From Nitrososphaera viennensis EN76 (lineage in GTDB: Archaea > Thermoproteota > Nitrososphaeria > Nitrososphaerales > Nitrososphaeraceae): a DNA stretch of 32,000 nucleotides. Below, one piece after another: positions 10,800 to 27,176 of this stretch (positions are counted from its first letter, which is position 1; each line of letters starts with the position of its first letter). The notes beneath the pieces were generated by a model, which saw only the letters and a program-made list of their open reading frames with translations, made no database searches and had not been told where the DNA came from. The position numbers and the translations under genes are program-made. The DNA lies in NCBI RefSeq assembly GCF_000698785.1, contig NZ_CP007536.1, forward strand, positions 240,001 through 272,000. Reading direction: 5' to 3'.

Positions 10800-11504
10800 G
10801 GCTCTGTTAACTTAGGGTAATCTGTATAGCTAGGACTGTCCTAGCTTTTCATTGGCATGAGAAAGAGGACAGACCCAGCTATAATCAGATATGCACTGTA
10901 CCTGTATTTTAATTCTAGGAGCTTTCGGCTGGCAGCCAGATCGCTATCACCAATAAAGAGAAGGAGCCACGTTGCTGTATGGAAATGGGTACAGAAATAT
11001 TCCAGCCTTGCAGACAGGTTCCGGACAGACAGACGCCTTGTCAGGGCAATATTTGTTGACGAAACACTATTGCAGATAGATGGGCATGACTATTGGCTAT
11101 GGATAGCGTACGAACCAACTATTGGCACATGCTTGATGATGCATCTGTCTCGTGAGAGGACCATTTTCGTATGTTACCAGTTCTTCAAGCAGTTGCAAAG
11201 GAGGTATGGAAGGAGGCCGATATTCACAGACGGTGCTCAGTGGTACAATGATGCTTGCAGGTGGCTCAGATTACGCCATTATGTGTACGGTACAGAATTG
11301 AAGAATTTGATGGAGCGGTTTATACAGCATATCAAGGACAGGACGGAGTGTTTTGACGACCACTTTCCATGCAGGAAGGAGAATTGTGACAGACAGCATG
11401 TCTGGAACTGGTTCAAATTATTTTTACTGTACCTGCATATGGGCGCAGACATGATACGGTTTATGACATTCCTGGCCAAGGATGGTGGCTAAGTTAACGG
11501 AGCC
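10800..11504 (+). mobile_element. IS6-family insertion sequence, apparently intact
   Basis: Terminal inverted repeats GGCTCTGTTAACTTAG (10800-10815) and the reverse complement of 11489-11504 (GGCTCCGTTAACTTAG) match 15/16. They resemble the IS26-type end GGCACTGTTGCAAA. TTGCAAC is duplicated directly outside both ends (10793-10799 and 11505-11511). Single DDE transposase ORF, with its stop inside the right IR. Size 705 bp. Confidence 0.85.
10857..11492 (+). CDS. IS6-family DDE transposase
   Basis: 211 aa. FVDETLLQIDG (D), IFTDGAQWYNDA (D), NLMERFIQHIKDR (E), with an N-terminal HTH-like segment. Confidence 0.85.
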   Translation: MRKRTDPAIIRYALYLYFNSRSFRLAARSLSPIKRRSHVAVWKWVQKYSSLADRFRTDRRLVRAIFVDETLLQIDGHDYWLWIAYEPTIGTCLMMHLSRERTIFVCYQFFKQLQRRYGRRPIFTDGAQWYNDACRWLRLRHYVYGTELKNLMERFIQHIKDRTECFDDHFPCRKENCDRQHVWNWFKLFLLYLHMGADMIRFMTFLAKDGG

Positions 11505-15845: not shown

Positions 15846-16991
15846 CTATTGGGACCTTGCCTTGAGCCACTGTCCCACTTTGGGGAGCACGTTGTTCTGC
15901 GAGTACGAGCTGGCGATGAGCCCGACGTGGCCTGTGTGGAAGCGCATGAGGCGCTTGTCTGTGCTTGACACCATGTCGTTGAGCGGCACGCTGCACTCTG
16001 GCGAAACAAGGTGATCCTCGTCGGCGACGAGGTTGAGCAGGGGCACAGTTATCTTTGACAGATCGACAACGAGGTCGCCGAGGTAGAACTCGTTTTTGGC
16101 GAGCAGGTTGTCCTGGTAAATGTCAGATATCCACTCCCTGAACGTCGCGCCGGCTATCGGAGGGGTGTCGTACAGCCACTTTTCTATGCGCAGGAAATTG
16201 CCGACAAACGGCTCGTTGTCGATGTTCTGCACTAGGTTAAAGTACTTGGCGACTCCCTGCTTGAACGGCTTGAGCGCAGAATAGCATGCAAACAGCTGCT
16301 CTGGCGGCAGGTTGCCTATCGTGTCGACCATCTTGGCAACGTCCATGTGCTTGGCCATGTTGCCGATGACTGTCGAGTCTTTTTCAGTGTCAATGACAGG
16401 GGCAATTACTGCCAGGTTGCGCACCTTTTCTTGGTGCAGGGCGGTGTACATTATGGACATTGACGCGCCCATGCAGTAGCCGTGCAGCGTCAGCTTGTCA
16501 GCCTTGCTCTTTTTCAGCACGGTATCGACGCAGTCGCTGATATAGCCGTTGACATAGTCGTCAAACGTCAGGTACTTGTCCACGGTTGACGGGTCCTTCC
16601 AGTCAATAAGGTAGACGTCAAAGCCCTGAGTCAGCAGGCTCCTTATCCAGCTCTTGTCCGGCTGGAGGTCAAGCACATACGACTTGTTGATGAGCGCATA
16701 AACTGTCAGAATGGGCGTCTTGAAGGTCTTGCTCACAAGCGGCTGGTAGTGCAAAAGCCGGTATGCCCTTGTCTCTACCAGCACTTCATGCGGCGTCTGG
16801 CCGACTTCGACCCTTCCTGCGGTATGCAGGATTTCCCTTGTCTTTTCAATCTTGCGAAGGTTCTCCTGCGCCTCTTTTGCCAGGTCTTCTGCCGGCTTTA
16901 TCGCCAGCTCTGTTGTTGCAGCGGCAGGCGATCGTGGCTGCTGCTGTTTTTGCTGCTCCGGCTTGTCTGGAAGCGTTTCTTGCTGTGTCAT
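15846..16991 (-). CDS. phaC: class III poly(3-hydroxyalkanoate) synthase, PhaC subunit
   Basis: 381 aa alpha/beta hydrolase with lipase-box-like GYCMGA (Cys nucleophile), a VADEDHLV Asp region and HTGHVG His. Class III size, with a 4-nt overlap to the upstream phaE. Confidence 0.88.
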   Translation of the reverse strand: MTQQETLPDKPEQQKQQQPRSPAAATTELAIKPAEDLAKEAQENLRKIEKTREILHTAGRVEVGQTPHEVLVETRAYRLLHYQPLVSKTFKTPILTVYALINKSYVLDLQPDKSWIRSLLTQGFDVYLIDWKDPSTVDKYLTFDDYVNGYISDCVDTVLKKSKADKLTLHGYCMGASMSIMYTALHQEKVRNLAVIAPVIDTEKDSTVIGNMAKHMDVAKMVDTIGNLPPEQLFACYSALKPFKQGVAKYFNLVQNIDNEPFVGNFLRIEKWLYDTPPIAGATFREWISDIYQDNLLAKNEFYLGDLVVDLSKITVPLLNLVADEDHLVSPECSVPLNDMVSSTDKRLMRFHTGHVGLIASSYSQNNVLPKVGQWLKARSQ

Positions 16992-17542
16992 TGTTTTTCT
17001 AGGCTCCTTTTCAGGTCGCGGACAGACCTCTTTAGCTCGTGTATGTCCTTGAGGATCTCGTCCATCTCTCCCCTCGTCGGCAGGTTGAGCGCCTTGAAGT
17101 TGCGCTCGGTTATGGTCTGCATGGCCCTTGACATGTCCAGCTGGCTACTGAACAGTTTGCCGTAGACCTGCGAAAACTCGGGCGACGCGTACAGGCCGGT
17201 GAATGCGTCCTCAAACGCCTCTATCATGGCCTTGCGGTAGCCGTCAAAGTCGTCCTTGGTCAAGAACTGCTTTGGTGCCCTTTCGGCCGTCTCTTTTGAC
17301 GCCTTGGTGTAGGCGGCGTTTATCATGGACCAGTACTGGTCCATGTGGGTCTTCATGTCAGCCATTATCTTGCCTAGGCTGACAAATTCGTTTGCGTACG
17401 TGTTAAAGTCCCTCGTAAATGCGTACATGGGGCCTATGGTCGGCAGCTTCAGCACCTCGGACCACATGTCAAACATCTTGCTTGCCTGGTCCGGGGTTAG
17501 CCCGGGCTTGAAGTTGTTATTTTTACTGTCATCAGTCGTCAT
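16988..17542 (-). CDS. phaE: PHA synthase PhaE subunit (short archaeal type)
   Basis: 185 aa from ATG 17542 (MTTDDSKNN). Coiled-coil-like C-terminus, translationally coupled to phaC (ATGA). The track's 85-codon upstream extension runs through AT-rich promoter-like DNA. Confidence 0.65.
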   Translation of the reverse strand: MTTDDSKNNNFKPGLTPDQASKMFDMWSEVLKLPTIGPMYAFTRDFNTYANEFVSLGKIMADMKTHMDQYWSMINAAYTKASKETAERAPKQFLTKDDFDGYRKAMIEAFEDAFTGLYASPEFSQVYGKLFSSQLDMSRAMQTITERNFKALNLPTRGEMDEILKDIHELKRSVRDLKRSLEKQ

Positions 17543-17936
17543 TATTAAATCACTTCTATTATTGACTAAGGTAGAGTTCACCCGCCAACTATTATAGTTT
17601 GTCTGTATGGGAATTATGCTATTATATGAAATGTTATGTAAAATCTTTACTATTAGGTACAGGTTTTGAGGCTTCTGCAATTGCAGAAAACGACCTCTTC
17701 CTGCTGAGGTGCAGATGTTTATTACGTCATGCGGCGTAAAGGATGGATAGTTGCAGAAACTGCCACAGGCGTGTATTTTCTTTATCATGTCTGGCATTTT
17801 GTTGCTATCTTTAGCATATCCTTTGCAAAAAAATAACGCGTAAGCCCACTACACATCGTCGCACGTAAAGGACCTGCCCGTAAGGATAGACAACGAGCAG
17901 TTCTCAAGCAACAGGGCAAGCACGGATGGCTTTATA

Positions 17937-18836
17937 GTGGTGACAGGCACGCTTGCAAGCCTCGCGACAGAGAGGATCGAGATGTCGCCGTACATCTTTG
18001 TGACTCTCTCGGAAGTGATTGATGCAAATGGCGTACGCCAAGAAGTGCCTCCATACTATGATCTCCTTGCTTTTATCTACCCTCCTTACCGCGACCAGTC
18101 AAGCTGGTACTTTAGGGTGGAACACCGCCTGCCCAGCTCGATAGTGCTTGAACCGGGCGAAAGAGTAGATTATGAAATCCGGATATATCCGCTCAAGGCA
18201 GGCGCATACCATGTTCACTCTTTCTTCCTGTCAGAGAACTTTCCGCGTCTTGGAATCGGCCAGACGATAATCGTGACAGGCTCTGGTGCGCCAACGACTG
18301 GGGAAATCACGCAGCTGTACCTGCCGCTTGCTCTGGGGCTGGCGTCATTTGCCATCCTGATGCTCAGGGTAATGCAGATTTCAAGGAAAACAAGTGCGCA
18401 TTTCACCAGAGAAAAGGTAGCCCGGGTATATTTTGCGGCCAAATCCTCGTTTGAAACCGTGTGGCTTGCCGGCGTCCTGTTCTGGCTTGCATCGGCCATG
18501 CCTTACCTTCCCGCGATTGAAGCAAGGTGCGCTTTTGTATTGTCTGCGTCCGCGGCGCTGGCAGCCATTATCGTAGCAGGTTATGCCTCTGCAATTATAA
18601 TGCCAAAAACCCGCCATCTGGCATTTGCAATGGCCACGTCAGCCATAACCGCTGCGTTCTACTTTGCGCTGCTGTTCGGCGAAGGCTCGCTGTATTCAAC
18701 CTACAAAGTGCCGCACTTTTTTGTGGACGGCTTGACATTATTTGCCGTCATGGTGGCAAACTCCCTCCTTGCGATTTATTTCGCAATTGCGGCACGGAAT
18801 GAGAGAAGAAAAAACAGACTGACAAGCGTCGCATAG
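17937..18836 (+). CDS. integral membrane protein with N-terminal soluble (beta-rich) domain
   Basis: About 120 aa of soluble region, then at least 5 hydrophobic helices (LYLPLALGLASFAILML, VWLAGVLFWLASAM, FVLSASAALAAIIVAGYASAII, AFAMATSAITAAFYFALLF, LTLFAVMVANSLLAIYFAIA). GTG start and no signal peptide, so the start is uncertain. Confidence 0.55.
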   Translation: MVTGTLASLATERIEMSPYIFVTLSEVIDANGVRQEVPPYYDLLAFIYPPYRDQSSWYFRVEHRLPSSIVLEPGERVDYEIRIYPLKAGAYHVHSFFLSENFPRLGIGQTIIVTGSGAPTTGEITQLYLPLALGLASFAILMLRVMQISRKTSAHFTREKVARVYFAAKSSFETVWLAGVLFWLASAMPYLPAIEARCAFVLSASAALAAIIVAGYASAIIMPKTRHLAFAMATSAITAAFYFALLFGEGSLYSTYKVPHFFVDGLTLFAVMVANSLLAIYFAIAARNERRKNRLTSVA

Positions 18837-18886: not shown

Positions 18887-18978
18887 GGGCTCGTAGCTCA
18901 GCATGGATAGAGCGCCTGCCTTCTAAACGTCCTGTTGAAGACAGCCGGAAGTCGTGGGATCGAAGCCCACCGGGCCCG
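18887..18978 (+). tRNA. tRNA-Arg(TCT) with a 17-nt anticodon-loop intron; integration target
   Basis: Acceptor GGGCTCG/CGGGCCC (one T-G pair), D-arm GCTC-AGCATGGATA-GAGC, anticodon stem CCTGC with loop CTTCTA.A (anticodon TCT), ~17-nt insert containing hairpin CTGT-TGAAG-ACAG, 3' stem GCCGG (one T-C mismatch), variable AAGTC, T-arm GTGGG-ATCGAAG-CCCAC. 92 - 17 = 75 nt. Confidence 0.7.
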
Positions 18979-18981
18979 CTT
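18970..18981 (+). repeat. attL core (CCGGGCCCGCTT)
   Basis: Exact 12-mer shared with 24389-24400. It covers the last T-stem base, the 3' acceptor strand, the discriminator and 3 nt downstream of tRNA-Arg. Confidence 0.6.
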
Positions 18982-19081
18982 TTTCCACTTATCGAGTCCA
19001 TGCCTTAAAAGCGCAGAAAATACGAAATTAGCGGAGGGAAAACAGGGAAACAAGAGCTGCAAGAAAAGAAGCAAGGATCTT

Positions 19082-20041
19082 TTGAAGGACGACGATGTAA
19101 GGAGATGGTACGAAAACCTGTGCCGCAGCAGCAAGCTGAACGCAGATGTATATCTGCGCAGGCTGAGGCTCTTTTGCGAGCAAAGGCACACGACACCAAG
19201 CAAGCTCGTCACCATCGGTACCGCCAACCCAAAGCAGGTCGAAGACATGCTGCATGACCACGTTCAGCAGCTGGAGACTGAAGGTTACGCGCCATCCTAC
19301 ATCAAGGGTGTCCTAAAAGCAGCCAAGTCGTGGCTTTCGTACAACTATGTCGAGCTGAAACGCAAGATAAAGGTGGCAAACGCAGATATGGCAATCACCT
19401 TGCAGGACGAAAGGGTGCCTACAAGGGAAGAGCTGAAAGCCGTACTGAATCATGCTTCGGTAAGAGCAAGGGCAAGTGCAGGCCTGATCGCATTTGCCGG
19501 ATTGAGGCCGCAGGTTCTGGGAAACGCTTCTGCTTCCGACGGGCTGACTGTTGGAGATATACCCGACCTGAAGATAGTCGACGGAAAAGCTGTGTTCCAG
19601 ACAGTGCCGGCGATGGTCATCGTAAGGTCAACATTGAGCAAGGCGCGTCACCGGTACTTTACGTTCCTTACAAGCGAAGGGTGTGAATATCTGGCTGCAT
19701 ACCTTGACAAGAGAATTGCCAGCGGTGAGACCATCAACGAAAGTTCAGCTGTGATGACCTTGAGCCAAGGCTACCTGATGAAAGGGAGGAACAAAGACGC
19801 TGGCAAGAAGTTCATCACCACACCTGCAATCACAAAAGAGATCAGAGAAGCCATGCTGCCAGTAATCAAGGCTAGGCCGTATGTCCTGAGGGCATACTTT
19901 GACACACAACTGTTGTTAGCTGAAAGCCAGGGCAAGATTGCACACGCGTACAGACAGTTCTTCATGGGCCACAAGGGAGACATCGAAGCCCGGTACACTA
20001 CGAACAGGGAAGGCTGCCTGACGAGCTTTTATCAGACATGA
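19082..20041 (+). CDS. tyrosine recombinase/integrase (catalytic core)
   Basis: AGLRPQVL (Arg I), SKARHRYFTF, PYVLRAYF (box with Arg II), FMGHKGDIEARY (His/Tyr nucleophile). The track ORF starts at 18935 inside the tRNA. TTG 19082 is the first canonical start downstream of the tRNA (MKDDDVRRWYENL). The 3' end appears frameshifted (see findings). Confidence 0.8.
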   Translation: MKDDDVRRWYENLCRSSKLNADVYLRRLRLFCEQRHTTPSKLVTIGTANPKQVEDMLHDHVQQLETEGYAPSYIKGVLKAAKSWLSYNYVELKRKIKVANADMAITLQDERVPTREELKAVLNHASVRARASAGLIAFAGLRPQVLGNASASDGLTVGDIPDLKIVDGKAVFQTVPAMVIVRSTLSKARHRYFTFLTSEGCEYLAAYLDKRIASGETINESSAVMTLSQGYLMKGRNKDAGKKFITTPAITKEIREAMLPVIKARPYVLRAYFDTQLLLAESQGKIAHAYRQFFMGHKGDIEARYTTNREGCLTSFYQT

Positions 20042-20421
20042 GAAGAGCCTTCCGAGAATCAGAACGATTCCTGAGTACGGCCACAGCGGAGGTCCAAGAA
20101 CAAGACAGAAAGGAAATACTGCTTGAAATGTGGAGGGAGCAGGCCAAGCTGTACGGCATCGACCCGATGAAGATAAAGATAGAAAAGCAAAGAGAAGACA
20201 GCAAGCCTCTTGGCATCGAAGATGAAATGCTTGCGATAAAGGACGCGATTGCAAGGGCAAGGGAGCTGGATGAAGAAGAAAAGTACAAGAGCAGGATCTT
20301 GGCAGACGAAGAAGAGCTTGTCTCCTATGTCCAAGATGGATGGGACATCGTAAAGGAGCTGAAGAGCGGCAAAGTTCTTGTCAGGAGGAAGAAGGTTTAC
20401 TGTCATCCACTAGCAGTTTAA
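20038..20421 (+). CDS. ORF that probably continues the integrase in a shifted frame (C-terminal tail/extension)
   Basis: The frame stays open upstream of its ATG and reads ..EQGRLPDELLSDMRRAFRESERFL. This is the type of segment that normally follows the catalytic Tyr of such integrases. It overlaps the integrase stop by 4 nt. Confidence 0.5.
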   Translation: MRRAFRESERFLSTATAEVQEQDRKEILLEMWREQAKLYGIDPMKIKIEKQREDSKPLGIEDEMLAIKDAIARARELDEEEKYKSRILADEEELVSYVQDGWDIVKELKSGKVLVRRKKVYCHPLAV

Positions 20422-20739
20422 GCGCGTCTCTACCGCCTCTTCCTTCTTTTTGTATGCATCTTCGGATATCTCTGACAAGAGTACGTTGACCAGTTTCAGA
20501 TAAGGTTGGATGGCGCTGCTTACAATCAAGTCGACAAATTCATGCCGCAGGGTCTGTAGCGCTTCCTCGACATCTAACGAATAGAGAATGGTGTCGCCAA
20601 CAACCTTTCCTTCATTCTCTGAATCTGATTTGGGAGACCAGACAACCTTAAACTCGGTCTTTATTCCTGCCCTATCTTTTAGCCTTTCCAGCTCTTTTTC
20701 AAGGATGAAGGAGCCGTTTTGTTCAAGTCTTGGATTCAT
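20410..20739 (-). CDS. hypothetical protein
   Basis: 109 aa from ATG 20739 (MNPRLEQNGSF...). Charged, protein-like composition, no recognised motif. Convergent with the integrase region. Confidence 0.45.
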   Translation of the reverse strand: MNPRLEQNGSFILEKELERLKDRAGIKTEFKVVWSPKSDSENEGKVVGDTILYSLDVEEALQTLRHEFVDLIVSSAIQPYLKLVNVLLSEISEDAYKKKEEAVETRLNC

Positions 20740-20813
20740 TGCCAAGTGATAAGTCAAATGTATAAAAGCCGTGAAACAGCTGAAACTTGGTGCAAGCCGG
20801 GAGCATGGTTTTT

Positions 20814-20854
20814 CGCCTTAAATATTTTGGATGCATATTATAGCGTAGCGTAAA
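20814..20854 (+). repeat. 41-nt module R, copy 1 (contains TATA-like CTTAAATATTT)
   Basis: CGCCTTAAATATTTTGGATGCATATTATAGCGTAGCGTAAA matches copy 2 at 33 of 41 positions (hand alignment, no gaps). Confidence 0.75.
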
Positions 20855-20947
20855 TCATGGCAAAAAGCCTGCCAGGGACAGGGGGATCGTAGTAGCACCG
20901 GCCTCGAATTATGATTTGCTTGGAAAAATGCAGTTTTGTTGCGTGAT

Positions 20948-20968
20948 GCATCAAAGAACCTAAATACA
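20948..20968 (+). promoter_or_regulatory. 21-nt module S, copy 1: BRE/TATA-like GCATCAAAGAACCTAAATACA
   Basis: 20/21 identical to 21208-21228. A purine-rich tract is followed by a TAAATA box, as in archaeal promoters. Confidence 0.4.
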
Positions 20969-21031
20969 AGCTACGTAGGCAGCATAAGACAATCGTCGAC
21001 TATTCTGCTGCAAAAATCGGGCGTCGATTTC

Positions 21032-21072
21032 CGCCTTAAATATTTACGATGTGTATTATGGTGTAGTATAAA
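21032..21072 (+). repeat. 41-nt module R, copy 2
   Basis: CGCCTTAAATATTTACGATGTGTATTATGGTGTAGTATAAA, 33/41 identical to 20814-20854. Confidence 0.75.
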
Positions 21073-21115
21073 CTAAGAACCGAACGACTGTTGTCCGTCA
21101 GGACAAAAACCTTGT

Positions 21116-21388
21116 TGGTACCAGTGGTACCAGAAGAACGCGGTGCCGTAGCACTAACCTATTTTGAAATATCCTTTCTCTAAAGCAGTGTGGTCTTGGT
21201 GCCCCGGGCATCAAAGAACTTAAATACATGATATATAAGGAACGGCTAAACCAATGGCATCAGTGGTGCCACTCCTGCAGGCGGGTGTCAAATTTTGATA
21301 CCAGAGCGTGAATATGTGGTACCAGTGGTACCACTGGTACCAACTTTCAACAGGATGGACACTCTGCCTGGTACCAGCGATGGCACCA
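21116..21388. repeat. cluster of at least 10 copies of the palindromic 8-mer TGGTACCA (iteron-like)
   Basis: Perfect copies at 21116, 21125, 21317, 21326, 21335 and 21369 (start positions). One- or two-mismatch copies are TGGCATCA 21255, TGGTGCCA 21264, TGATACCA 21296 and TGGCACCA 21381. Adjacent copies are mostly spaced 9 nt apart. I saw no perfect copy elsewhere in the window. Confidence 0.9.
21208..21228 (+). promoter_or_regulatory. 21-nt module S, copy 2: GCATCAAAGAACTTAAATACA
   Basis: 20/21 identical to 20948-20968. BRE/TATA-like. Confidence 0.4.
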
Positions 21389-22016
21389 GACAGGATCGAG
21401 TGATACGCCGATGCATAGCCTGCCAACGGTGGGAAATAACATGAAGAACAACGGTCGTGGCCACGACTTGATACGCCTGACAATGCACGATCCGTAGGAT
21501 GCGCTACCAGACCGGTTAATCCCTAGCTCGGCAGAATGATCGGAAGAATATTTGCCGTCGCAGAGCACTGTTCTTGCGCTTTCAGACGCTGCTCTAGTTC
21601 TGCGGCTGAATGCAGAGATATTGAATATGTACCTACAATGCAAAATGATATTGCTGCTGGTGCCAGACATTCTCCCCGCATTATCCATTTTCATGTCAAG
21701 TTTTCTTTTACCTTATCATACATCTTATATCTGTCCAACTACGTTGTATGCTAAGATTCTACCGTTTGCTTACGATTGATATTTGCCCTAACTCTGTAAC
21801 TTCGCTCCCCTATTTTCTATCTGCAATCCGTTCTTTGCGTTGTGCATGGTAATAATCCATGTCCAATTTTCTATTCACACAATTCTCGATGGTACTGTTC
21901 CACATCTGTTAGCTACTACAATATATCATAGCTATTTTGGAAGAATCCTTTGATTCCTTGACTGCCCTTCTATTATTCCGTATGCTCTGGATAGCAGCAT
22001 TGCTAGCAAAAAATAA

Positions 22017-22265
22017 TCATACTCCAAGAATCTTCTTGATCTCTTCGATCATGCGCGGATTGAGCGACACCTGCATACCGTAGCTTGTAGGCTTTGGCAG
22101 GATGAACCCTATCTTTATCAGCTTGTGAACTTCGTCTTCAACTTCGCCGCGCATGTGCTTTGGAAATCCTTTCTTGAGGTTTTCAATGGCGGTGTGCTTG
22201 CCGCCTATGATGGTGTCTTTGAGCATTCTCTCCAGTACCGTCTTCTGGACGGGATTCACGGCCAT
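22017..22265 (-). CDS. small wHTH-like DNA-binding protein
   Basis: 82 aa from ATG 22265 (MAVNPVQKTVLERML...). The C-terminal HKLIKIGFILPKPTSYGMQVSLNP looks like a recognition helix plus wing. Divergent from the next wHTH gene. Confidence 0.45.
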   Translation of the reverse strand: MAVNPVQKTVLERMLKDTIIGGKHTAIENLKKGFPKHMRGEVEDEVHKLIKIGFILPKPTSYGMQVSLNPRMIEEIKKILGV

Positions 22266-22353
22266 AGTTACAAGCACTGATTTATATAATAATCATGACA
22301 TACATGACGTAAGGTAACGACATATTATATAGCGGCCATCGCATAGCTATGGC
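22266..22353. promoter_or_regulatory. divergent promoter region of the two element-borne wHTH genes
   Basis: Opposed TATA-like boxes TTTATATAATAA and ATATTATATAG, direct repeat CATGACA-TA-CATGACG, and a 10-bp palindrome CATAGCTATG abutting the 22354 start. Confidence 0.4.
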
Positions 22354-22719
22354 ATGGCAAGAAAGAAAGAGTTGGAAAAGGCGTTAGAATCAGGCCCGCT
22401 TGAGCGCCTGTTTGCCGGAAACGCCACGGCAAAGATTTTGGACTTTCTGTCGACATTTAGAGAGTTCGACTATTCAGAATCAGATATCGCAAGGTATTCC
22501 GGCGTTTCCATAAGGCATGCGCAGCGAGAGCTTCCCAAGCTGGAACGGCTGAAGCTGATAAAGATGACGAGGATATCCGGTAAATCCAAGATGTACAGGA
22601 TGGACGCAGAGTCGCAGACAGGCATGACGGCAAGCAAGTTTGGACTTGCATTGGCCAGCATTGAAGTGGACAGCGTACTGGCTAAGGAGAAGCAGAAAGA
22701 AAAGCCGCTGACAGCCTAG
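22354..22719 (+). CDS. winged helix-turn-helix transcriptional regulator
   Basis: AKILDFLSTFREFDYSESDIARYSGVSIRHAQRELPKLERLKLIKMTRISGKSKMYRM. It has the same layout as the chromosomal regulator at 6754..7080. Confidence 0.6.
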   Translation: MARKKELEKALESGPLERLFAGNATAKILDFLSTFREFDYSESDIARYSGVSIRHAQRELPKLERLKLIKMTRISGKSKMYRMDAESQTGMTASKFGLALASIEVDSVLAKEKQKEKPLTA

Positions 22720-22726
22720 GCTTTTC

Positions 22727-22747
22727 AATCTCCACTACTTGGAGATT
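22727..22747 (+). terminator. stem-loop after the wHTH gene
   Basis: AATCTCCA-CTACT-TGGAGATT (8-bp stem) starts 8 nt after TAG 22717-22719. Confidence 0.4.
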
Positions 22748-22909
22748 TCAACTTTAACTTCGACCCGCAAGCAGCGTCGACGGGGCGGGGCCCTCTGAGA
22801 CAGACAGGACAGGCGGCAGGCCAGGGACTCGCGACGTCAAGACTCGCCAAGTCACGCCACATCTAGAGCGTGCAATCCTTCTGGCCGAGTTAAACCAGCT
22901 TGAATGGAT

Positions 22910-22932
22910 GAGAGGCTCCGGCCTCTCTTTTT
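22910..22932 (+). terminator. intrinsic-terminator-like hairpin plus T5
   Basis: GAGAGGC-TCCG-GCCTCTC followed directly by TTTTT. Confidence 0.5.
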
Positions 22933-23056
22933 ATAATACATATCGACAGCATGTCTATATCCCAACTGTCTGCCTCGCCCTCCCGCTTGGAGGGCTCGGC
23001 CACGGTTGGCTTTAAACCCTCAGAGAGAGATATCCCAAAGAAAGAGTGATAGTACC

Positions 23057-23617
23057 TCATACCACTTCAAGTTCTGCAACTTTGACAGGTTTGGTAAGAG
23101 CGAAGTCCGTATTTTGCACGTCCTTGGGCTTGAATACATAGATGAACATCGTGTATTTTCCGACAGTGTCCGGATGCCACATTGAATCGATGCTATATTG
23201 TGTACTTCCTGCAATCGTTGCATTATTCATGACATTTACCACTTCATTCCCATCCCCATCTCTTACCTGAAGCACCACTACATTCTCCACATTCTTTTCA
23301 GAAGGATTGGTGAAGACTGCGTGTAGTGTGATTGGCTGTCCATTTTTTATTTGCAGACTCTGTTCGATTGTGCCTATCTTCTCTCCGTTTTCATTTTTTG
23401 CAGTCACTTCAGATAATGCCAGTAGGGGAGATGTAGCATTATTGGTGGCAGCACCGTTGTTGTTTCCCTCGACATTGTTATCGCTTCCGTTAAAACCGGA
23501 AGATTTTTGGTCTGATAATGTTCCGTACGCCAGGTATGCTGATAACGCACCTAATGCTATTATGACGCCTACCAAGATTACGATTACTTTTTTGCCGGAT
23601 TTTGAATGTTGTTCCAT
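23057..23617 (-). CDS. N-terminally membrane-anchored extracellular protein with CARDB-like beta-sandwich domain
   Basis: MEQHSKSGKK plus hydrophobic VIVILVGVIIALGALSAYLAY, an N/S/G-rich linker, then ITLHAVFTNPSEKNVENVVVLQVRD...GSTQYSIDSMWHPDTVGKYTMFIYVF. This parallels the C-terminal domain of the 12849..15587 protein (VSISATFKNYQNKPQNYVYITQVEK...GQTETVSRSWTTPVEPGNYAIKLFVW). Confidence 0.6.
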   Translation of the reverse strand: MEQHSKSGKKVIVILVGVIIALGALSAYLAYGTLSDQKSSGFNGSDNNVEGNNNGAATNNATSPLLALSEVTAKNENGEKIGTIEQSLQIKNGQPITLHAVFTNPSEKNVENVVVLQVRDGDGNEVVNVMNNATIAGSTQYSIDSMWHPDTVGKYTMFIYVFKPKDVQNTDFALTKPVKVAELEVV

Positions 23618-23689
23618 GGATGTTCCCTAATATAGAAACAGAATAAACAAATGAACAATAAAAAAATTATGGAGGTTGCTACTACTGCC

Positions 23690-24334
23690 TCACCAAATCT
23701 GAGCTCCGTTGCTTTTAGTAGCACCGTTATACCCTATCTGGAAGTTGCCCGGTGTTCCGAGGTAAGTAACCCCATAGCTTGCATTGTTTGTTCCAACACA
23801 ATTCTTGTTAACATATGCATCATCCCAGTTGCTAAATGTGACTCCGTCACCTGCAACACGTGTAGCTTTCAAGAGAGTCTGCACTGTTACCAAGCCTAAG
23901 GTCTGAGTATTTGAGTTGGGTCCAAACCCGTTGCTTTCTGCGAAAATAAATGTGTCACTTGCCACGCTGACAGAACTAGAACCTATAGCCATTGTTTGGA
24001 GCTGACCTGTATTTTTGTCGTTGAACCACGCTTCCCATCTGCTTGCACTGCTAATGTATATCAGAGAAATCTCTACTTGATGTCCCGCCACCGGAGTTAT
24101 GCTTGAAACACCTAGTATCTGCCCTCCTTTTCCCCATGCAAACTGAAAGACATTGGGATTATAGCCCGACCCACCTCCTGAAGTAAACGATCCGTAATAC
24201 ATTCCTGCCTCATAGTAATTGGCATCGTTTCCTACAAAGGCCACATGGATGTTGACGCCATTTGATGAATTGCCACTGCTCTGTATTGTTGAGATTGTTG
24301 AGTATATAATCCGCCTGCACAACACCGCAAGCAT
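23690..24334 (-). CDS. hypothetical beta-rich protein, possibly concanavalin-like/peptidase-G1-like fold
   Basis: Start set at ATG 24334 (MLAVL...), because the longer track ORF would cross the attR repeat. The motif order VAFVGND..YYEAG, FQFAWGKGG, NDKNTGQ, FIFAESNGF loosely parallels G1 (eqolisin) family blocks. Function call is weak. Confidence 0.4.
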   Translation of the reverse strand: MLAVLCRRIIYSTISTIQSSGNSSNGVNIHVAFVGNDANYYEAGMYYGSFTSGGGSGYNPNVFQFAWGKGGQILGVSSITPVAGHQVEISLIYISSASRWEAWFNDKNTGQLQTMAIGSSSVSVASDTFIFAESNGFGPNSNTQTLGLVTVQTLLKATRVAGDGVTFSNWDDAYVNKNCVGTNNASYGVTYLGTPGNFQIGYNGATKSNGAQIW

Positions 24335-24388
24335 GTCCGAAATCAACCGTTTGAGTTCGGACTCGATATCTGGAGAATCAGGGAACCG

Positions 24389-24400
24389 CCGGGCCCGCTT
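24389..24400 (+). repeat. attR core (CCGGGCCCGCTT)
   Basis: Exact copy of 18970-18981. A 7-bp inverted repeat GTCCGAA..TTCGGAC lies just inside it (24335-24362). Confidence 0.6.
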
Positions 24401-24407
24401 CTCTTTT

Positions 24408-24977
24408 TTACCTCCTTGACAAGAGTGCATACGCCCCGCCGACCGCGTAGGCTATGGCTATCAGTATCCTTGAAACCATGACTGCGACGTCCTGATGCGT
24501 AGCAAAGAGCGAGCTGTCTATCACAAAGGCGACAGGCAGGGCCACAAGCGAAATGGCGCCCACCAGCAGTTGCTCTGTGTTGTTCTGGCCGCTGTACTTT
24601 CTCATCATGATGTAGGTGGAGAGGTTGCCAAGGCCGATGCCCAGCAGGATGAGATACTGGTAGAGGGAAGGAAACGCGCTGATGGCCGCAAACGGCCCTG
24701 CCCAGGATATGCCGTTTATTGCTTTTGCCGAAGTCGACCACTTGATGCTGTTCTTCATGCGCCCCCGAATGGCCGGGATTGCCTTGCGAAAGCGCGGACC
24801 TGCGGCTGCAAGGACCGCGCCGAAACTTCCCCCCCATATCACTGCGTACCAGTAGGCAGACATACTGTTGGTTGCGGCAAGCTCTGAAAGGACAGAGCCG
24901 GCGCCAACGGCCGCTGACACTGCCACGAAAAGAACGCCAAACGCCCGTCTGGTCTGGAGCGCCGAGTTTTCCAACAC
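24408..24977 (-). CDS. integral membrane protein, unknown function
   Basis: 189 aa with about 6 hydrophobic segments. G+C-rich like the core genes. Confidence 0.55.
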   Translation of the reverse strand: MLENSALQTRRAFGVLFVAVSAAVGAGSVLSELAATNSMSAYWYAVIWGGSFGAVLAAAGPRFRKAIPAIRGRMKNSIKWSTSAKAINGISWAGPFAAISAFPSLYQYLILLGIGLGNLSTYIMMRKYSGQNNTEQLLVGAISLVALPVAFVIDSSLFATHQDVAVMVSRILIAIAYAVGGAYALLSRR

Positions 24978-25052: not shown

Positions 25053-27176
25053 TTACTTTGCCGCGCCGGACACCTTGGCCCATCTGGCCATCGCGCCTGC
25101 CGCCGTGACCCACTCGATTACCGAGTGGTAGACTGGCACGTTGGCATCTTCGATGCGCTTTGAGATGTTCCTGGTGAACGGTCCTCCCATCGCGCCGATG
25201 AGTATGGGCTTTTTCTTTTGCTTTTGGAACGACGCAAGCACGTCAACGATCGTCTCTTCAAGCGGGTCGTCCTGGAAGACGAACCACGGCATGATGATGT
25301 CGACGTTGGGGTCGTCCATGAACGCCTGTATCGCAAAGCGGTAGTCGTCGGCGTTTGCAGAGCCTGTGATGTCGCACGGGTTGCCGATGACGTAGGTCGC
25401 CGGGTAGTGCTCCTTGAACGCCTTCTTGGTCTGATCTGACAGTTCTGCGACCTGCAGGCCGAGGCGCTCAAAGTTGTCAATCGCCGCGATTATTGGCCCT
25501 GCGCCGTTTGTGACCATTGCCACGCGGCTTCCCTTTGGCACCGGCTGCCAGTTCAGCGCCTTTAGTGCTGCTGTAAGTTCTTCATAGCTGTCAGCCCCGA
25601 TGATGCCTGCCTGGTCCAGCGCGCCTTTCACGACGCCGTACGAGCCTCCAAGCGATCCCGTGTGAGAAGCCGCCTGCTTGGCGCCCCTTGCACTCCTGCC
25701 GTTCTTGAATACTACTATTGGCTTTTTGCGCTCTGTGATGACCTTCTTGGCTGTGTTCATGAACTTGCGTCCGTCGCCGAGGCCCTCCACGTACAGGCCG
25801 ATTACCTTGGTGTTTGGATCTTCAGAGAGGTACCAGATCATGTCTGCCTCGTCCACGTCGGACCTGTTGCCGTACGAGATCATCTTGCTCATGCCAAAGA
25901 CGTCGGAACTTTCCATGAAGGCGATGCCGACCGTCCCGCTCTGGGAGAGGAACGCGACGTTGCCGTTCTTGGGGCGAAGCATCCTTGCGTGGCCTTGGAA
26001 CGCGCAGTCGAGGCGGTTTGCGCCGTTGAACATGCCGATGCAGTTGGGGCCGATGATCCTTATCTTCAGTTCCCGTGACAGCTTCTTTACCTCTGCCTCG
26101 ATGGCCGCGCGCTCGCCTCCAAGCTCCTTGCCTCCGCCGGAAATTACTACAAAGTTGTGGATGCCCTTCTTTGCCGCCGACCTCATGAGGTCCGGGACGA
26201 ACTTCAGGTCTACCGTCACGACCACGAGCTCGACGTTTTCAGAGATGTCGTCGAGGCTCTTGTACGCCTTGATGCCCATGATTTCTGGGTAGCCCTTGGC
26301 GTTTACCGGGAACACCTTGCCCTTGTAGTCGTGCTTGACCATGCTCTCAAGAACCGAGTTGCCGACCTTTCCTGCCTCCGGCGACGCGCCAATGAGCGCA
26401 ATCGACTTGGCATTGAAGAACAGGTCCATGTACGAGGAGTCAGGCTGCGCCCTGGACACGGCGTTTGCGTCGACTGCCTGCCTGAGGATTATCTTGGCGT
26501 CGACTACGTAATAGTCCTTCTCGTAGAATATCACGGGGTTAAAGTCGATGCTCTCGTAGTAGGATGCCATCTCTGTGCCGAGGTTGCCGATGCTCACAAG
26601 GGCGTTTGCAATCATGTCCTTGTCGACCGGGGCCGCGCCGCGGAACCCTTCGAGGATCTTCTTGCCCTTGAGGTCGTTTATCATGTCCAGCGCGTCCTGC
26701 TTTGTAATCGGCAATACTCTGAACGCGACGTCCTTGAAGACCTCAGTGTAGATGCCTCCGATTCCGACCATGATAATCGGGCCAAACTGGGGGTCGTTCT
26801 GCAGGCCGACAATGAGCTCTGCGCCTGGTGGCACCATCTTTTCAAGGAGCACGCCCTTGACCGTGTTGTATTGTTTTGACAGCCTGCCGTGCATGTCGCT
26901 AAAAGCGTCCTTGACCTGTGCCTCGTTCTGCAGGCCGACCTTGACACCCTTGACGTCTGTCTTGTGCAGGATCTCGGGCGACACTATCTTGGCGACAAGC
27001 GGAAAGCCCATCGCCTTGGCCTTGCCTGCGGCATCTGCCTCGCTTGTGACAAGCGCGTACGGCGGCACCTTGACACCGTACTCTGTCAAAACCTGTTTAG
27101 CCAATTCTTCTGTGATTACTTTTTCCTTGGTTGCAAAAACATCATCAAAGATCTTTTGGACCTTTTGATTCGCCAT
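25053..27176 (-). CDS. ADP-forming acyl-CoA synthetase (NDP-forming), fused beta-alpha arrangement
   Basis: N-terminal ATP-grasp ([26 protein letters not shown]), then CoA-binding [31 protein letters not shown], the phospho-His loop SHTGSLGG, and a ligase-CoA C-terminal domain. 707 aa. Confidence 0.88.

What the first reader, a model, noticed from the sequence alone, without database searches (positions are those of the whole stretch)
18887..24400. About 5.4-kb element integrated at tRNA-Arg(TCT), bounded by a 12-bp direct repeat
The 3' acceptor strand of tRNA-Arg plus 4 nt (CCGGGCCCGCTT, 18970-18981) recurs exactly at 24389-24400. Under a uniform-base model, a given 12-mer recurring on either strand of 32 kb has a chance of about 4 in 1000 (my arithmetic). 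An integrase gene abuts the tRNA. The second copy sits 8 nt from the stop of an ordinary-looking membrane-protein gene. The enclosed genes are of a type common on mobile elements (integrase, two wHTH regulators, unknowns, two exported proteins), and there is a 1.25-kb iteron-bearing region with no convincing protein-coding ORF. I recognise no capsid, replication-protein or conjugation genes. It is therefore either a minimal or defective element or a new type whose replication and packaging functions are not recognisable.
Basis: partly seen in the sequence, partly recalled or inferred. Interest (0 to 1): 0.7.

Follow-up and report, generated by a model that had tools for sequence, protein, structure and literature searches.

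The report
Known small integrated element NitVie-E1
The 5.4-kb stretch is a real mobile element inserted at the end of a tRNA-Arg gene in the soil archaeon Nitrososphaera viennensis, but it was already catalogued in 2019 as NitVie-E1; the only possibly new point is that its integrase gene appears to be cut in two by the insertion itself.

Summary
An intron-containing tRNA-Arg(TCT) lies at 18887-18978. The 12-mer CCGGGCCCGCTT occurs only at 18970-18981 and 24389-24400. GC content drops inside the interval. At least 15 related Nitrososphaera genomes have an empty site, with the tRNA running straight into the membrane-protein gene.

The window is N. viennensis EN76 (CP007536, offset 240,000). The element is NitVie-E1 in Table S2 of Krupovic et al. 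2019: 258970-264400, 5431 bp, att CCGGGCCCGCTT, tRNA-Arg(TCT), class "cryptic integrated element". The finding is therefore already known.

Points not in that catalogue:
- The "integrase" and the next "unknown" ORF are one gene, broken by a genuine 1-nt deletion near 20005.
- The integrase has a Xer/Cre-like fold and is not a detectable SSV-type (PF16795) member.
- Its TATA box, ATG and first 19 codons sit at the far (right) end and read in frame across att. Two other bounded relatives show the same arrangement. This suggests a split ("suicidal") architecture (about 0.7).
- The integrase is paired with a conserved 115-aa gene across the whole family.
- The 1.25-kb non-coding region, with its TGGTACCA iterons and two wHTH genes, forms a backbone conserved in relatives.
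- A 97%-identical, intact integrase in NitVie-E4 could act in trans.

The parts
18887..18978 (+). Host tRNA-Arg(TCT) gene with a 19-nt intron. Its last 9 nt lie inside attL.
   Evidence: Rfam RF00005, 42.6 bits. Missed by ARAGORN. Conserved at 88-98% in related genomes.
18970..18981 (.). attL: left copy of the 12-bp direct repeat CCGGGCCCGCTT. The core shared with relatives is the 10-bp CCGGGCCCGC.
   Evidence: Same att listed for NitVie-E1 in Table S2 of PMC6563490.
18991..18999 (.). ATCGAGTCC: inner inverted-repeat arm next to attL, pairing with 24359-24367. Candidate integrase-binding site.
   Evidence: the repeat finder I9. CGAGTCC is retained in all 10 related left ends.
19003..19011 (+). 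CCTTAAAAG: TATA-like box that precedes the start codon in classical family members. Here the corresponding start position (19031-19033) reads GCG instead of GTG.
18982..20041 (+). Integrase body, int(C): an unconstrained linker, a basic segment, the core-binding domain and the catalytic domain up to 3 codons past the catalytic Tyr. The ORF reads out of the tRNA with no ATG or GTG; RefSeq starts it at TTG 19082.
   Evidence: invariant R, K, Y..R, H, Y; Xer/Cre/lambda Int fold.
20004..20007 (+). Site of the 1-nt deletion (ACGAAC-AGGG against ACGAACAAGGG in relatives) that frameshifts the integrase.
   Evidence: The separate downstream ORF is on record in 11 contigs of independent assemblies.
20007..20421 (+). 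Conserved C-terminal region of the integrase (about 135 aa, helical plus a small beta-alpha-beta-beta end), out of frame with the body. Called as a separate 127-aa ORF at 20038-20421.
20410..20757 (-). o115: a 115-aa protein convergent with the integrase and overlapping its 3' end. It is the integrase's conserved partner across the whole family. Function unknown; it has an invariant H-E-x-x-D motif.
20758..22016 (.). Conserved non-coding region. Two copies of a promoter-like repeat (20788-20854 and 21006-21072) each contain CGCCTTAAATATTT. An AT-rich tail spans 21700-22016.
   Evidence: (77-84% DNA identity in L117, L118, L119, L001 and L002).
21116..21388 (.). Iteron cluster: 6 exact TGGTACCA palindromes plus 3 one-mismatch variants, partly at 9-bp spacing.
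   Evidence: All 6 exact copies in the 32-kb window lie here. The cluster is conserved in L117, L118 and L002.
22017..22277 (-). o86: small protein (arCOG13240 in the published table), divergent from o121.
   Evidence: (88-94% identical in L117-L119). No Pfam hit.
22354..22719 (+). o121: winged-helix / HTH protein.
   Evidence: Weak HTH_Crp_2 hit (E=0.002). PHROG HTH DNA-binding protein. arCOG01210 in the published table. 92-93% identical in L117-L119.
23057..23617 (-). o186: cargo protein with an N-terminal membrane anchor, annotated as a PKD-domain protein (arCOG08800). Absent from related elements.
23690..24334 (-). o246: cargo protein of unknown function, absent from related elements. The RefSeq start at 24430 would lie outside the element; an internal ATG at 24334 is the alternative start.
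24303..24310 (+). TATATAAT: TATA-like box at -30 to -23 of the ATG at 24333.
   Evidence: The same geometry is seen in L083 and L115. Only 5 such boxes occur on the + strand of the window.
24333..24388 (+). Putative int(N): ATG plus 18 further codons (MSEINRLSSDSISGESGNR, with the last base of codon 19 being the first base of attR), reading in frame into attR and, in the excised circle, into the integrase body.
24359..24367 (.). GGACTCGAT: inner inverted-repeat arm next to attR, pairing with 18991-18999.
24389..24400 (.). attR: right copy of the 12-bp direct repeat.

Best explanation
This is NitVie-E1, a 5,431-bp cryptic integrated element of Nitrososphaera viennensis EN76. A circular form carrying an attP recombined with the 3' end of the chromosomal tRNA-Arg(TCT) gene, within the shared core CCGGGCCCGC. 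The reaction was catalysed by the element's tyrosine recombinase. The tRNA was regenerated and the core was duplicated as attL and attR (shown: borders, empty sites, recombinase identity). In the circle, the integrase gene most likely runs across attP: a TATA box and ATG at what is now the right end, 19 leader codons, the att core, then the body at what is now the left end. Integration therefore separates the promoter and start codon from the body, switches the gene off and locks the element in, as with SSV-type 'suicidal' integrases (inferred, about 0.7). In this copy the integrase also carries a genuine 1-nt deletion three codons after the catalytic tyrosine. That detaches a family-wide conserved C-terminal region, so the element is probably unable to excise on its own (the deletion is shown; loss of activity is inferred). 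A 97%-identical, intact integrase in NitVie-E4 in the same genome recognises the same core and could act in trans (inferred). There is no capsid, conjugation or recognisable replication gene. The conserved TGGTACCA iteron array, its promoter-like boxes and the two small HTH proteins form the only candidate maintenance or regulatory module (function inferred, weakly). The two right-hand genes are strain-specific cargo.
For: Identity:
- o115 is 100% identical to an N. viennensis protein on a 2,527,938-bp contig.
- Table S2 of PMC6563490 lists NitVie-E1 at 258970-264400, 5431 bp, att CCGGGCCCGCTT, tRNA-Arg(TCT).
- All seven gene coordinates in the published table match the window's ORFs at an offset of 240,000.

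Insertion:
- Empty sites occur in L003, L005, L008, L014 and at least 11 more relatives, with base-level junctions.
- GC content drops inside the interval.
- L083 and L115 are bounded by the same core.

Recombinase:
- R142, K187, Y267, R270, H297 and Y305 are invariant in 55 homologues.
- The predicted fold matches XerA, IntI, Cre and lambda Int.
- PHROG phrog_1 integrase, E=3.5e-7.

Frameshift.

Split gene:
- The rebuilt junction gives one ORF.
- The ATG leader is conserved and in frame in all 3 bounded elements.
- A TATA-like box lies at exactly -30 to -23 in all three, and the window's upstream sequence is unrelated to the other two.
- Every length difference in the basic segment among 10 left ends is a multiple of 3, so the segment is coding. 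Yet 8 of the 10 have no GTG and 3 also have no TTG.
- The integrase bodies of those 8 are under strong purifying selection: 2740 synonymous against 774 nonsynonymous differences.

Trans helper: L001 is the left end of NitVie-E4, with a 441-aa intact integrase, 97% identical.

Backbone.
Against: - No excised circle or attP junction was found in the collections I could scan, so mobility of this copy is not shown.
- The split-gene reading is not proven. The 19 leader codons and the 19 codons between att and the basic segment show no sign of selection on the protein (variable sites 12/6/6 by codon position; 59 synonymous against 298 nonsynonymous differences). Their DNA conservation could simply reflect att-arm binding sites.
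- A TATA-like box (CCTTAAAAG) lies downstream of att. L083 and L115 have a GTG at the spacing expected for a classical leaderless start, and RefSeq uses TTG 19082.
- All folded domains lie in int(C), so an internally started protein might work.
- Nothing shows that the iterons act as an origin. No initiator, helicase or primase was detected.
Confidence: 0.9

Rival explanations
1. The integrase is classical (not split). It is transcribed from the CCTTAAAAG box just inside attL and starts at an internal codon (TTG 19082 here, GTG in L083 and L115). The conserved 72 bp at the right end is only the other arm of attP, and its ATG, open frame and TATA-like box are coincidental.
For: Distant family members are clearly classical, with their own TATA-like box and start codon after the tRNA and, in L093 and L100, an in-frame stop between them. 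The same box is conserved in the window, and L083 and L115 have a GTG 26 nt downstream of it. The leader and linker codons show no purifying selection. All folded domains lie downstream of 19082. RefSeq and the 2019 table annotate it this way.
Against: Eight of 10 close relatives have GCG or CCG in place of the GTG, and three also lack the TTG. Yet the basic segment upstream of the TTG is coding (all indels are multiples of 3), and the gene bodies are under strong purifying selection. The frame is open from att to the body in all 10 sequences, while the other two frames carry stops. The right-end ATG is in frame in 3 of 3 bounded elements, with a TATA-like box at exactly -30 to -23, in two unrelated upstream contexts.
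Confidence: 0.25
2. NitVie-E1 is an integrative plasmid that can replicate on its own once excised. The TGGTACCA iteron array would be its origin, and one of the small HTH proteins (o86 or o121) its initiator, recruiting host replication proteins.
For: There is a dense, conserved iteron cluster with an adjacent AT-rich stretch. It co-occurs with the two HTH genes in L117-L119 and L122. The 2019 paper raises the same idea for the 2.6-kb NitUzo-E2, by analogy with wHTH Rep proteins of IncP-1 plasmids.
Against: No Rep, helicase, primase or partition gene is detectable. 8-bp palindromes are equally typical of operators for dimeric repressors. No free circular contig was found. The more distant relatives L083 and L115 lack the iterons altogether, so the array is not essential to this kind of element.
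Confidence: 0.25
3. NitVie-E1 is not a 'minimal' element by design. It is a decayed deletion remnant of a larger element of the NitVie-E4 / L117-L122 type.
For: The closest backbones (L117, L118/L119 and L122) continue for more than 10 kb and carry extra genes, including a DUF6788 gene that is missing from the window exactly where similarity is interrupted (21722-21934). The integrase is frameshifted. Part of the non-coding region is duplicated (D2).
Against: Both att copies, the inverted repeats and the leader with its TATA box are intact. Bounded relatives of similar size exist (7.0 and 9.7 kb). The published catalogue contains even smaller elements (2.6 kb). Cargo differs between elements, as expected for modular exchange as opposed to simple decay.
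Confidence: 0.35
4. The region is not an insertion. It is ancestral DNA that relatives have lost, and the 12-mer repeat is a chance match.
For: The repeat is short (12 bp), and the locus is variable in other ways: the 299-aa gene left of the tRNA is also strain-specific.
Against: At least 15 species-level relatives have the same precise junction, with the tRNA end joined to the membrane-gene end. The repeat is exactly the recombination core used by independent elements in three different tRNA-Arg genes. An integrase abuts it. GC content drops inside the interval. 0 of 100 shuffles reproduce the repeat.
Confidence: 0.02

Closest known systems
NitVie-E1, cryptic integrated element of Nitrososphaera viennensis EN76 (Krupovic et al. 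2019, Environ Microbiol 21:2056; PMC6563490, Tables S1/S2)
   Same: It is the same object: 5431 bp, att CCGGGCCCGCTT, tRNA-Arg(TCT), and seven annotated genes at coordinates equal to the window's ORFs plus 240,000.
   Different: Nothing differs in the object itself. The catalogue lists the integrase (arCOG01241) and the next ORF as separate genes. It does not mention the frameshift, the leader at the right end, the iterons or the partner gene, and it never discusses the element in the main text.
NitVie-E4 (20.3 kb, same genome) and relatives L117-L122, L083 and L115
   Same: The integrase is 83-97% identical, with the same att core (CCACCGGGCCCGC[T]) in tRNA-Arg genes, the same int-o115 pair and, for the closest relatives, the same iteron region and HTH genes.
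   Different: They are larger, with an intact integrase and different cargo: CRISPR-Cas I-B and VirB6 in NitVie-E4 according to the paper, and Cas genes in L118. L083 and L115 lack the iterons.
SSV-type ('suicidal', type I) archaeal integrases: SSV1, pTN3, pT26-2 and, in Nitrososphaera, NitEve-E3
   Same: The architecture appears the same: attP inside the integrase ORF, so integration splits the gene into int(N) and int(C) at opposite ends, with a tRNA 3' end as the target (definition in PMC8371274).
   Different: The integrase is not a detectable homologue: 0 of 55 members hit PF16795 and no SSV1 integrase appears among the 50 fold matches listed. The att is 10-13 bp against 40-50 bp. Only about 19 unconserved codons are split off, where SSV-type integrases lose a functional N-terminal part. 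The host is a mesophile. Sister lineages of the same family are classical.
Classical (pNOB8-type / lambda-type) integrases and archaeal XerA
   Same: It has a two-domain tyrosine recombinase fold, closest to XerA (4a8e), IntI, Cre and lambda Int. Distant members of the family keep the gene intact on integration.
   Different: No Pfam or NCBIfam model recognises it. It has a Tyr in place of the His of the HxxR box and a conserved extension of about 135 aa after the catalytic Tyr. The Nitrososphaera lineage lacks a conserved start codon inside the element's left end.
NitUzo-E2 and other very small thaumarchaeal cryptic elements; iteron plasmids with wHTH initiators (IncP-1 TrfA), as suggested in PMC6563490
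   Same: The gene set is tiny: an integrase, wHTH protein(s) and hypothetical proteins, with no recognisable replication protein. Iterons sit near HTH genes.
   Different: Replication from the iterons is untested here, and the iterons are 8-bp palindromes, as in operators. I did not examine the NitUzo-E2 sequence.

Membership tests
Thaumarchaeal cryptic integrated elements (CIE; Krupovic et al. 2019) | A multigene insertion in a thaumarchaeal chromosome, bounded by direct repeats (att) and validated against an empty site in a relative | tested here: met
   The 12-bp direct repeat; empty sites in at least 15 Nitrososphaera genomes; listed by name with the same borders.
Thaumarchaeal cryptic integrated elements (CIE; Krupovic et al. 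2019) | Encodes an integrase but no capsid or packaging genes, no casposase and no conjugation apparatus | tested here: met
   Pfam, PHROGs and NCBIfam scans of all the ORFs give only the integrase and weak HTH hits.
Tyrosine recombinase superfamily | Catalytic residues R...K...(H)xxR...H/W...Y | tested here: met
   R142, K187, Y267-x-x-R270, H297 and Y305 are invariant in 55 homologues. Tyr replaces the first His.
Tyrosine recombinase superfamily | Two-domain fold: a helical core-binding domain plus the catalytic domain | tested here: met
   AlphaFold model with pLDDT 81.7. Foldseek hits XerA 4a8e (E=6.6e-6), IntI 2a3v, Cre and lambda Int over 320-375 columns.
Tyrosine recombinase superfamily | Recognised by the sequence model PF00589 (Phage_integrase) | tested here: not met
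   No hit for the window protein or P0001. 1 of 55 members hits at E=6e-4. The fold and catalytic residues nevertheless place it in the superfamily.
SSV-type / suicidal integrases (SSV, pTN3-like and pT26-2-like families) | attP lies inside the integrase ORF, so integration splits the gene into int(N) and int(C) | tested here: inconclusive
   For: a continuous in-frame ORF across the rebuilt junction in 3 of 3 bounded elements; a TATA-like box at -30 to -23 of the leader ATG; no conserved internal start although the basic segment is coding. Against: no selection signal on the leader or linker, and an internal TATA-like box. No transcript or protein data.
SSV-type / suicidal integrases (SSV, pTN3-like and pT26-2-like families) | [quoted passage not shown] | tested here: not met
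   0 of 55 members hit PF16795 at E<=0.01. No SSV1 integrase structure appears among the 50 PDB matches listed. No profile-profile comparison was run.
SSV-type / suicidal integrases (SSV, pTN3-like and pT26-2-like families) | att site of about 40-50 bp | tested here: not met
   12 bp here and 13 bp in L083 and L115; the shared core is 10 bp. Short att sites are typical of Thaumarchaeota (median 17 bp).
Classical (pNOB8-type) integrases | The integrase gene, with its own promoter and start codon, stays intact after integration | tested here: inconclusive
   Met in distant members (L084, L093, L100, L123). In the window the only canonical in-frame start after the tRNA is TTG 19082, which is not conserved. 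The gene is in any case broken by the frameshift.
Iteron-controlled replicon | Clustered direct repeats (iterons) next to an AT-rich region | tested here: met
   6 exact and 3 near-exact TGGTACCA sites in 21116-21388, conserved in relatives. GC is 0.42 at 21500-22100.
Iteron-controlled replicon | A cognate initiator (Rep) protein, and demonstrated replication | not testable with these tools
   No Rep-like domain was detected. o86 and o121 are only candidate DNA binders.
Provirus / integrative-conjugative element | Capsid and terminase genes, or a VirB4/VirD4-type transfer apparatus | tested here: not met
   None detected with PHROGs, Pfam or NCBIfam. 5.4 kb leaves no room for them.

The most novel reading that the evidence does not exclude
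The Nitrososphaera lineage of this integrase family targets tRNA-Arg genes. The family is Xer/Cre-like, invisible to Pfam, and has more than 3,000 members in ammonia-oxidising archaea. In this lineage the promoter and start codon lie on the far side of attP, so integration splits the gene. That would be a second, independent origin of the 'suicidal integrase' architecture, in mesophiles. The 2021 review assigns that architecture to a single clade (PF16795) and describes it as a feature of hyperthermophiles. Sister lineages of the same family are still classical, and L083 and L115 keep both start codons. The classical-to-suicidal transition would therefore be caught in progress.
Probability: 0.45. 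Interest if true: 0.55.

Novelty: already known. Interest (0 to 1): 0.22.

Why it matters
As stated, the finding adds nothing new. The element, its borders, its att and its target tRNA were published in 2019. Its value is as a clean positive control, because a reader working from sequence alone recovered a catalogued element to the base.

The side results could matter to specialists in archaeal mobile elements:
- If the split-gene reading holds, self-disrupting integrases are not confined to one hyperthermophile clade but arose again in soil ammonia oxidisers. Transitional forms are still present, which would make it possible to test how such an apparently self-defeating arrangement evolves.
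- N. viennensis EN76 is a cultured strain. It carries one frameshifted copy (E1) and one intact 97%-identical copy (E4) that recognise the same core. That offers a natural system for testing excision in trans.
- The integrase family is abundant in ammonia-oxidising archaea yet mostly annotated as 'hypothetical protein'. A dedicated profile would improve detection of mobile elements in these ecologically important organisms.

Tried and rejected
- ARAGORN found no tRNA in the window. The cause is the intron, and Rfam resolved it.
- Exact-string scans for the predicted empty site (genome collection) and for the circular junction (viral contigs) found nothing. The empty site was found instead through the flanking gene. 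Its flank differs slightly between species, which explains why the exact string missed it.
- Sequence searches of the integrase against Pfam, NCBIfam and PDB sequences gave nothing useful. Only PHROGs, the alignment and the fold identified it.
- A viral-contig search with the integrase found no relative.
- No terminal overlaps, which would indicate circular contigs, were found in 21 integrase-bearing loci.
- The 146-aa ORF called in L119 over the iteron region looks like translated GGTACC repeats rather than a gene. The 115-aa ORF at 21347-21694 is only 43% identical in protein where the DNA is 77% identical, so I treated it as non-coding.
- The long N-terminal extension of homologue P0082 is an over-called ORF. 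L124 (P0085) has an att-like core with no tRNA upstream and an ORF open across it, but I could not tell whether that element is free or integrated.
- NitGar-E3 uses the same att core, but its integrase lies next to the partial att copy in the opposite relative orientation. I could not show that it belongs to the same family.
- The o115 fold search gave no significant match. The afdb50 library was unavailable.
- The bacterial sigma-70 promoter scan does not apply to an archaeon, so I ignored it.
- No right ends were found for the larger relatives L002, L117, L118 and L122 within the 10 kb available.

Full report
**1.
- The 12-mer CCGGGCCCGCTT is exact at 18970-18981 and 24389-24400 and occurs nowhere else in the window, even with one mismatch allowed. 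None of 100 dinucleotide-preserving shuffles gave two matches.
- ARAGORN reported no tRNA. Rfam finds one at 18887-18978 (42.6 bits, gathering score 29) with a 19-nt insertion after the anticodon loop, which is an archaeal intron. The loop CUUCUAA gives tRNA-Arg(TCT).
- The repeat spans the last 9 nt of the tRNA plus 3 nt. Its second copy ends 7 nt before the stop codon of a 189-aa membrane-protein gene.
- GC falls to 0.42-0.48 across 20300-24200, against 0.53-0.59 outside.
- No longer copy of the tRNA 3' half exists in the window.

**2. It is an insertion.** I used the conserved 707-aa acyl-CoA synthetase gene to the right of the element to fetch 80 Nitrososphaeraceae loci, then mapped the window's landmarks onto them.
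- In the closest relative (L003, synthetase 95% identical) and in L005, L008, L010, L014-L018, L021-L024, L027 and others, the order is synthetase, 189-aa membrane gene, tRNA-Arg(TCT), PhaE, PhaC.
- In those loci nothing lies between the membrane gene and the tRNA, and no integrase or other element ORF is present.
- At base level, the tRNA end (...CCGGGCCCGC) runs within 5-25 nt into the sequence that lies right of the second repeat in the window.

**3. It is already known.**
- The element's 115-aa protein is 100% identical to a Nitrososphaera viennensis protein on a 2,527,938-bp contig.
- Supplementary Table S2 of Krupovic et al. [quoted passage not shown]
- Window 18970-24400 is 5431 bp. All seven annotated genes of NitVie-E1 match the window's ORFs at an offset of exactly 240,000. 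The IS6 copy listed at 250857-251492 matches the ORF at 10857-11492.
- The paper classes the element as a cryptic integrated element. Such elements are 2.6-98 kb and have no signature gene other than an integrase. The paper also notes that thaumarchaeal att sites are unusually short (median 17 bp, minimum 8 bp).
- NitVie-E1 is not discussed in that paper's main text, nor in the text of any paper in the library.

**4. The integrase.**
- Pfam and NCBIfam do not recognise it. PHROGs gives phrog_1 integrase at E=3.5e-7.
- It has 3,422 homologues at E<=0.001, from Nitrososphaera, Nitrosopumilus and Nitrosotalea, mostly unnamed.
- All full-length homologues are about 440-480 aa and read ...ARYTTNKGRLPDELLTDMRRAFRESERF.... 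So the window's "integrase" (ending ...ARYTTNREGCLTSFYQT*) and the following 127-aa "unknown" ORF are one gene.
- The break is a single-base deletion near 20005 (ACGAAC-AGGG against ACGAACAAGGG in five relatives), three codons after the catalytic Tyr.
- The separate 127-aa ORF is on record in 11 contigs from independent assemblies, so the deletion is real and not a sequencing error.
- Across 55 diverse members, R142, K187, Y267, R270, H297 and Y305 (P0001 numbering) are invariant.
- An AlphaFold model (pLDDT 81.7) matches archaeal XerA, integron integrase, Cre and lambda Int over both domains. No SSV1 integrase appears among the 50 matches listed.
- None of the 55 members hits PF16795, and one weakly hits PF00589.
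- The roughly 135 residues after the Tyr are conserved family-wide. They are predicted as four helices plus a small beta-alpha-beta-beta unit.

**5. A probably split gene.**
- In the window, no ATG or GTG lies between the tRNA and the conserved LLKDDDVRRWY motif, and the ORF reads out of the tRNA through attL.
- Joining ...24388 | att | 18982... produces one ORF starting at ATG 24333 (MSEINRLSSDSISGESGNRRARFFHLSS...), with both att copies read in the same frame.
- Two independently bounded relatives carry the same ATG-led 19-codon leader, in frame, just inside their right att: L083 (7.0 kb, CCACCGGGCCCGC at 76 and 7039) and L115 (9.7 kb, core at 2263 and 11946).
- In all three elements an 8-nt TATA-like box (TATATAAT or TTAATAAT) spans exactly -30 to -23 of that ATG. 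To my knowledge that is the usual archaeal geometry for a leaderless mRNA. The window's upstream sequence is unrelated to the other two. Only five such boxes occur on the + strand of the whole window.
- Among ten distinct left ends, the distance from att to the VRRWY motif differs by 0, +6, -9, -3, +9, +6, +15, +12 and +9 nt, all multiples of 3. The basic segment upstream of the RefSeq TTG is therefore coding.
- Eight of the ten have GCG or CCG where L083 and L115 have GTG, and three also lack the TTG.
- Those eight genes are under strong purifying selection: 2740 synonymous against 774 nonsynonymous codon differences, and variable sites of 70/29/224 by codon position.

*Caveats.* The leader and the 19 linker codons show no selection on the protein. 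A TATA-like box (CCTTAAAAG) lies just inside attL, at the spacing used by classical relatives. Distant family members (L084, L093, L100, L123) are clearly classical. I put the split reading at about 0.7. If it is right, the element works like an SSV-type "suicidal" integrase (defined in PMC8371274) without being a detectable member of that family.

**6. Targets and a possible helper.**
- All close relatives sit in tRNA-Arg genes that share the 3' end GTCGTGGGATCGAAGCCCACCGGGCCCG:
  - TCT: window, L083, L117, L118.
  - TCG: L002, confirmed by ARAGORN.
  - A third gene: L001, L115, L116, L120, L122. It reads as Arg(CCG) once a variable insert in the anticodon stem is removed.
- L001 is the left end of NitVie-E4 in the same genome. 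The offsets from att to the integrase (115 nt) and to the transposase (2292 nt) match the published table.
- The NitVie-E4 integrase is intact (441 aa) and 97% identical to the window's. It could therefore act on the NitVie-E1 att sites. This is an inference.

**7. The rest of the element.**
- A convergent 115-aa gene (o115) accompanies the integrase in nearly every family locus, including members only 35-50% identical. It has an invariant H-E-x-x-D motif. No structural match is significant; the only compact superpositions are with minigluzincin metallopeptidases (TM about 0.4, E about 2).
- The region 20758-22016 has no credible gene but is 77-84% identical at DNA level in L117, L118/L119, L001 and L002.
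- That region holds two promoter-like repeats containing CGCCTTAAATATTT, a box conserved in all relatives.
- It also holds a cluster of TGGTACCA palindromes. All 6 exact copies in the window lie in 21116-21376, and there are 9-16 sites in the relatives.
- The two small genes o86 and o121 (the latter with a weak HTH hit) are 88-94% identical in the same relatives.
- The two right-hand genes, o186 and o246, have no counterpart in any related element and are cargo.
- No capsid, packaging, conjugation or replication protein was detected.

**8. Verdict.** It is a minimal cryptic integrated element, and in this copy probably a defective one. The frameshift, the likely split integrase of a non-SSV family, the family-wide int-o115 pair and the conserved iteron/HTH backbone are additions to the published record. 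None of them has been tested experimentally.

Noticed in passing
window 17937-18836: The 299-aa membrane-protein gene between PhaE and the tRNA is absent from nearly all relatives. L003 has only about 255 bp at that position. L118 has a 74%-identical copy at the same place. The protein has a weak AmoB-like hit (Pfam Monooxygenase_B, E=0.0017; NCBIfam AmoB, E=0.0014). It is a second strain-variable insertion, on the other side of the tRNA.
   Followed up: partly
L006, L009, L012, L013, L020 (between the 189-aa gene and the tRNA); L023 (between the tRNA and PhaE): Other relatives carry 1.2-1.45 kb between the membrane gene and the tRNA 3' end, or about 4 kb on the tRNA's 5' side, with no similarity to NitVie-E1 genes. 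This tRNA-Arg locus is a general hotspot of variation.
   Followed up: no
L001 9806-9898; also L115, L116, L120, L122: The tRNA targeted by NitVie-E4 and several relatives is missed by both Rfam and ARAGORN. It reads as tRNA-Arg(CCG) if a variable 14-20-nt insert interrupting the anticodon stem (CUG|insert|GC CUCCGGA GCCAG) is an intron. The 2019 table calls the NitVie-E4 target tRNA-Phe(GAA), probably by reading CTGAAAA inside that insert.
   Followed up: partly
L125, L129, L130, L131 against window 18951-21882: Contigs from several independent assemblies join the NitVie-E4 left junction to the NitVie-E1 frameshifted integrase and downstream sequence. The switch falls inside a 379-nt tract (19002-19381) that is identical between the two integrase copies, or by 19645 in L131. 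This is most likely an assembly chimera. The long identical tract also suggests gene conversion between the two elements, and real E1 x E4 recombinants are not excluded.
   Followed up: partly
window 10857-11492: This is an IS6-family transposase ORF (211 aa), listed as ISNamo12-like in Table S3 of the 2019 paper. A transposase with the same protein accession is annotated inside NitVie-E4, and the L001 contig breaks at that position.
   Followed up: partly
window 23690-24430 (- strand): The RefSeq start of the last element gene (ATG 24430) lies outside the element, beyond attR, and overlaps the end of the host membrane-protein gene. So either the first 10 codons come from host DNA, or the true start is the ATG at 24334. 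That ATG overlaps the putative integrase leader ATG (24333) on the other strand by 2 nt.
   Followed up: no
window 20788-21223: A segment of about 218 bp in the non-coding region, containing the CGCCTTAAATATTT box, is present twice in the window and in L002 but only once in L117, L118, L122, L001 and L120.
   Followed up: partly
L118 15293-21314: The relative at the same PhaC-PhaE-tRNA-Arg(TCT) locus has Cas6, Cas3, Cas5 and Cas7 (DevR) genes 4-10 kb downstream of the integrase. [quoted passage not shown] Its right end was not found within the DNA held for the locus.
   Followed up: no
L124 6939-7170: A distant family member has an att-like core (CCCCCGGGCCCGC) with no detectable tRNA upstream. 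An ORF is open from an ATG three codons before the core into the integrase body, and none of the 10 genes on the 10-kb contig has a Pfam hit. This could be an unintegrated element with an att-spanning integrase gene.
   Followed up: partly
window 15846-17797 and 25053-27176: The host flanks encode PHA synthase PhaC/PhaE and a 707-aa ADP-forming acyl-CoA synthetase. The order synthetase, membrane gene, tRNA-Arg, PhaE, PhaC is conserved across many Nitrososphaera genomes.
   Followed up: partly
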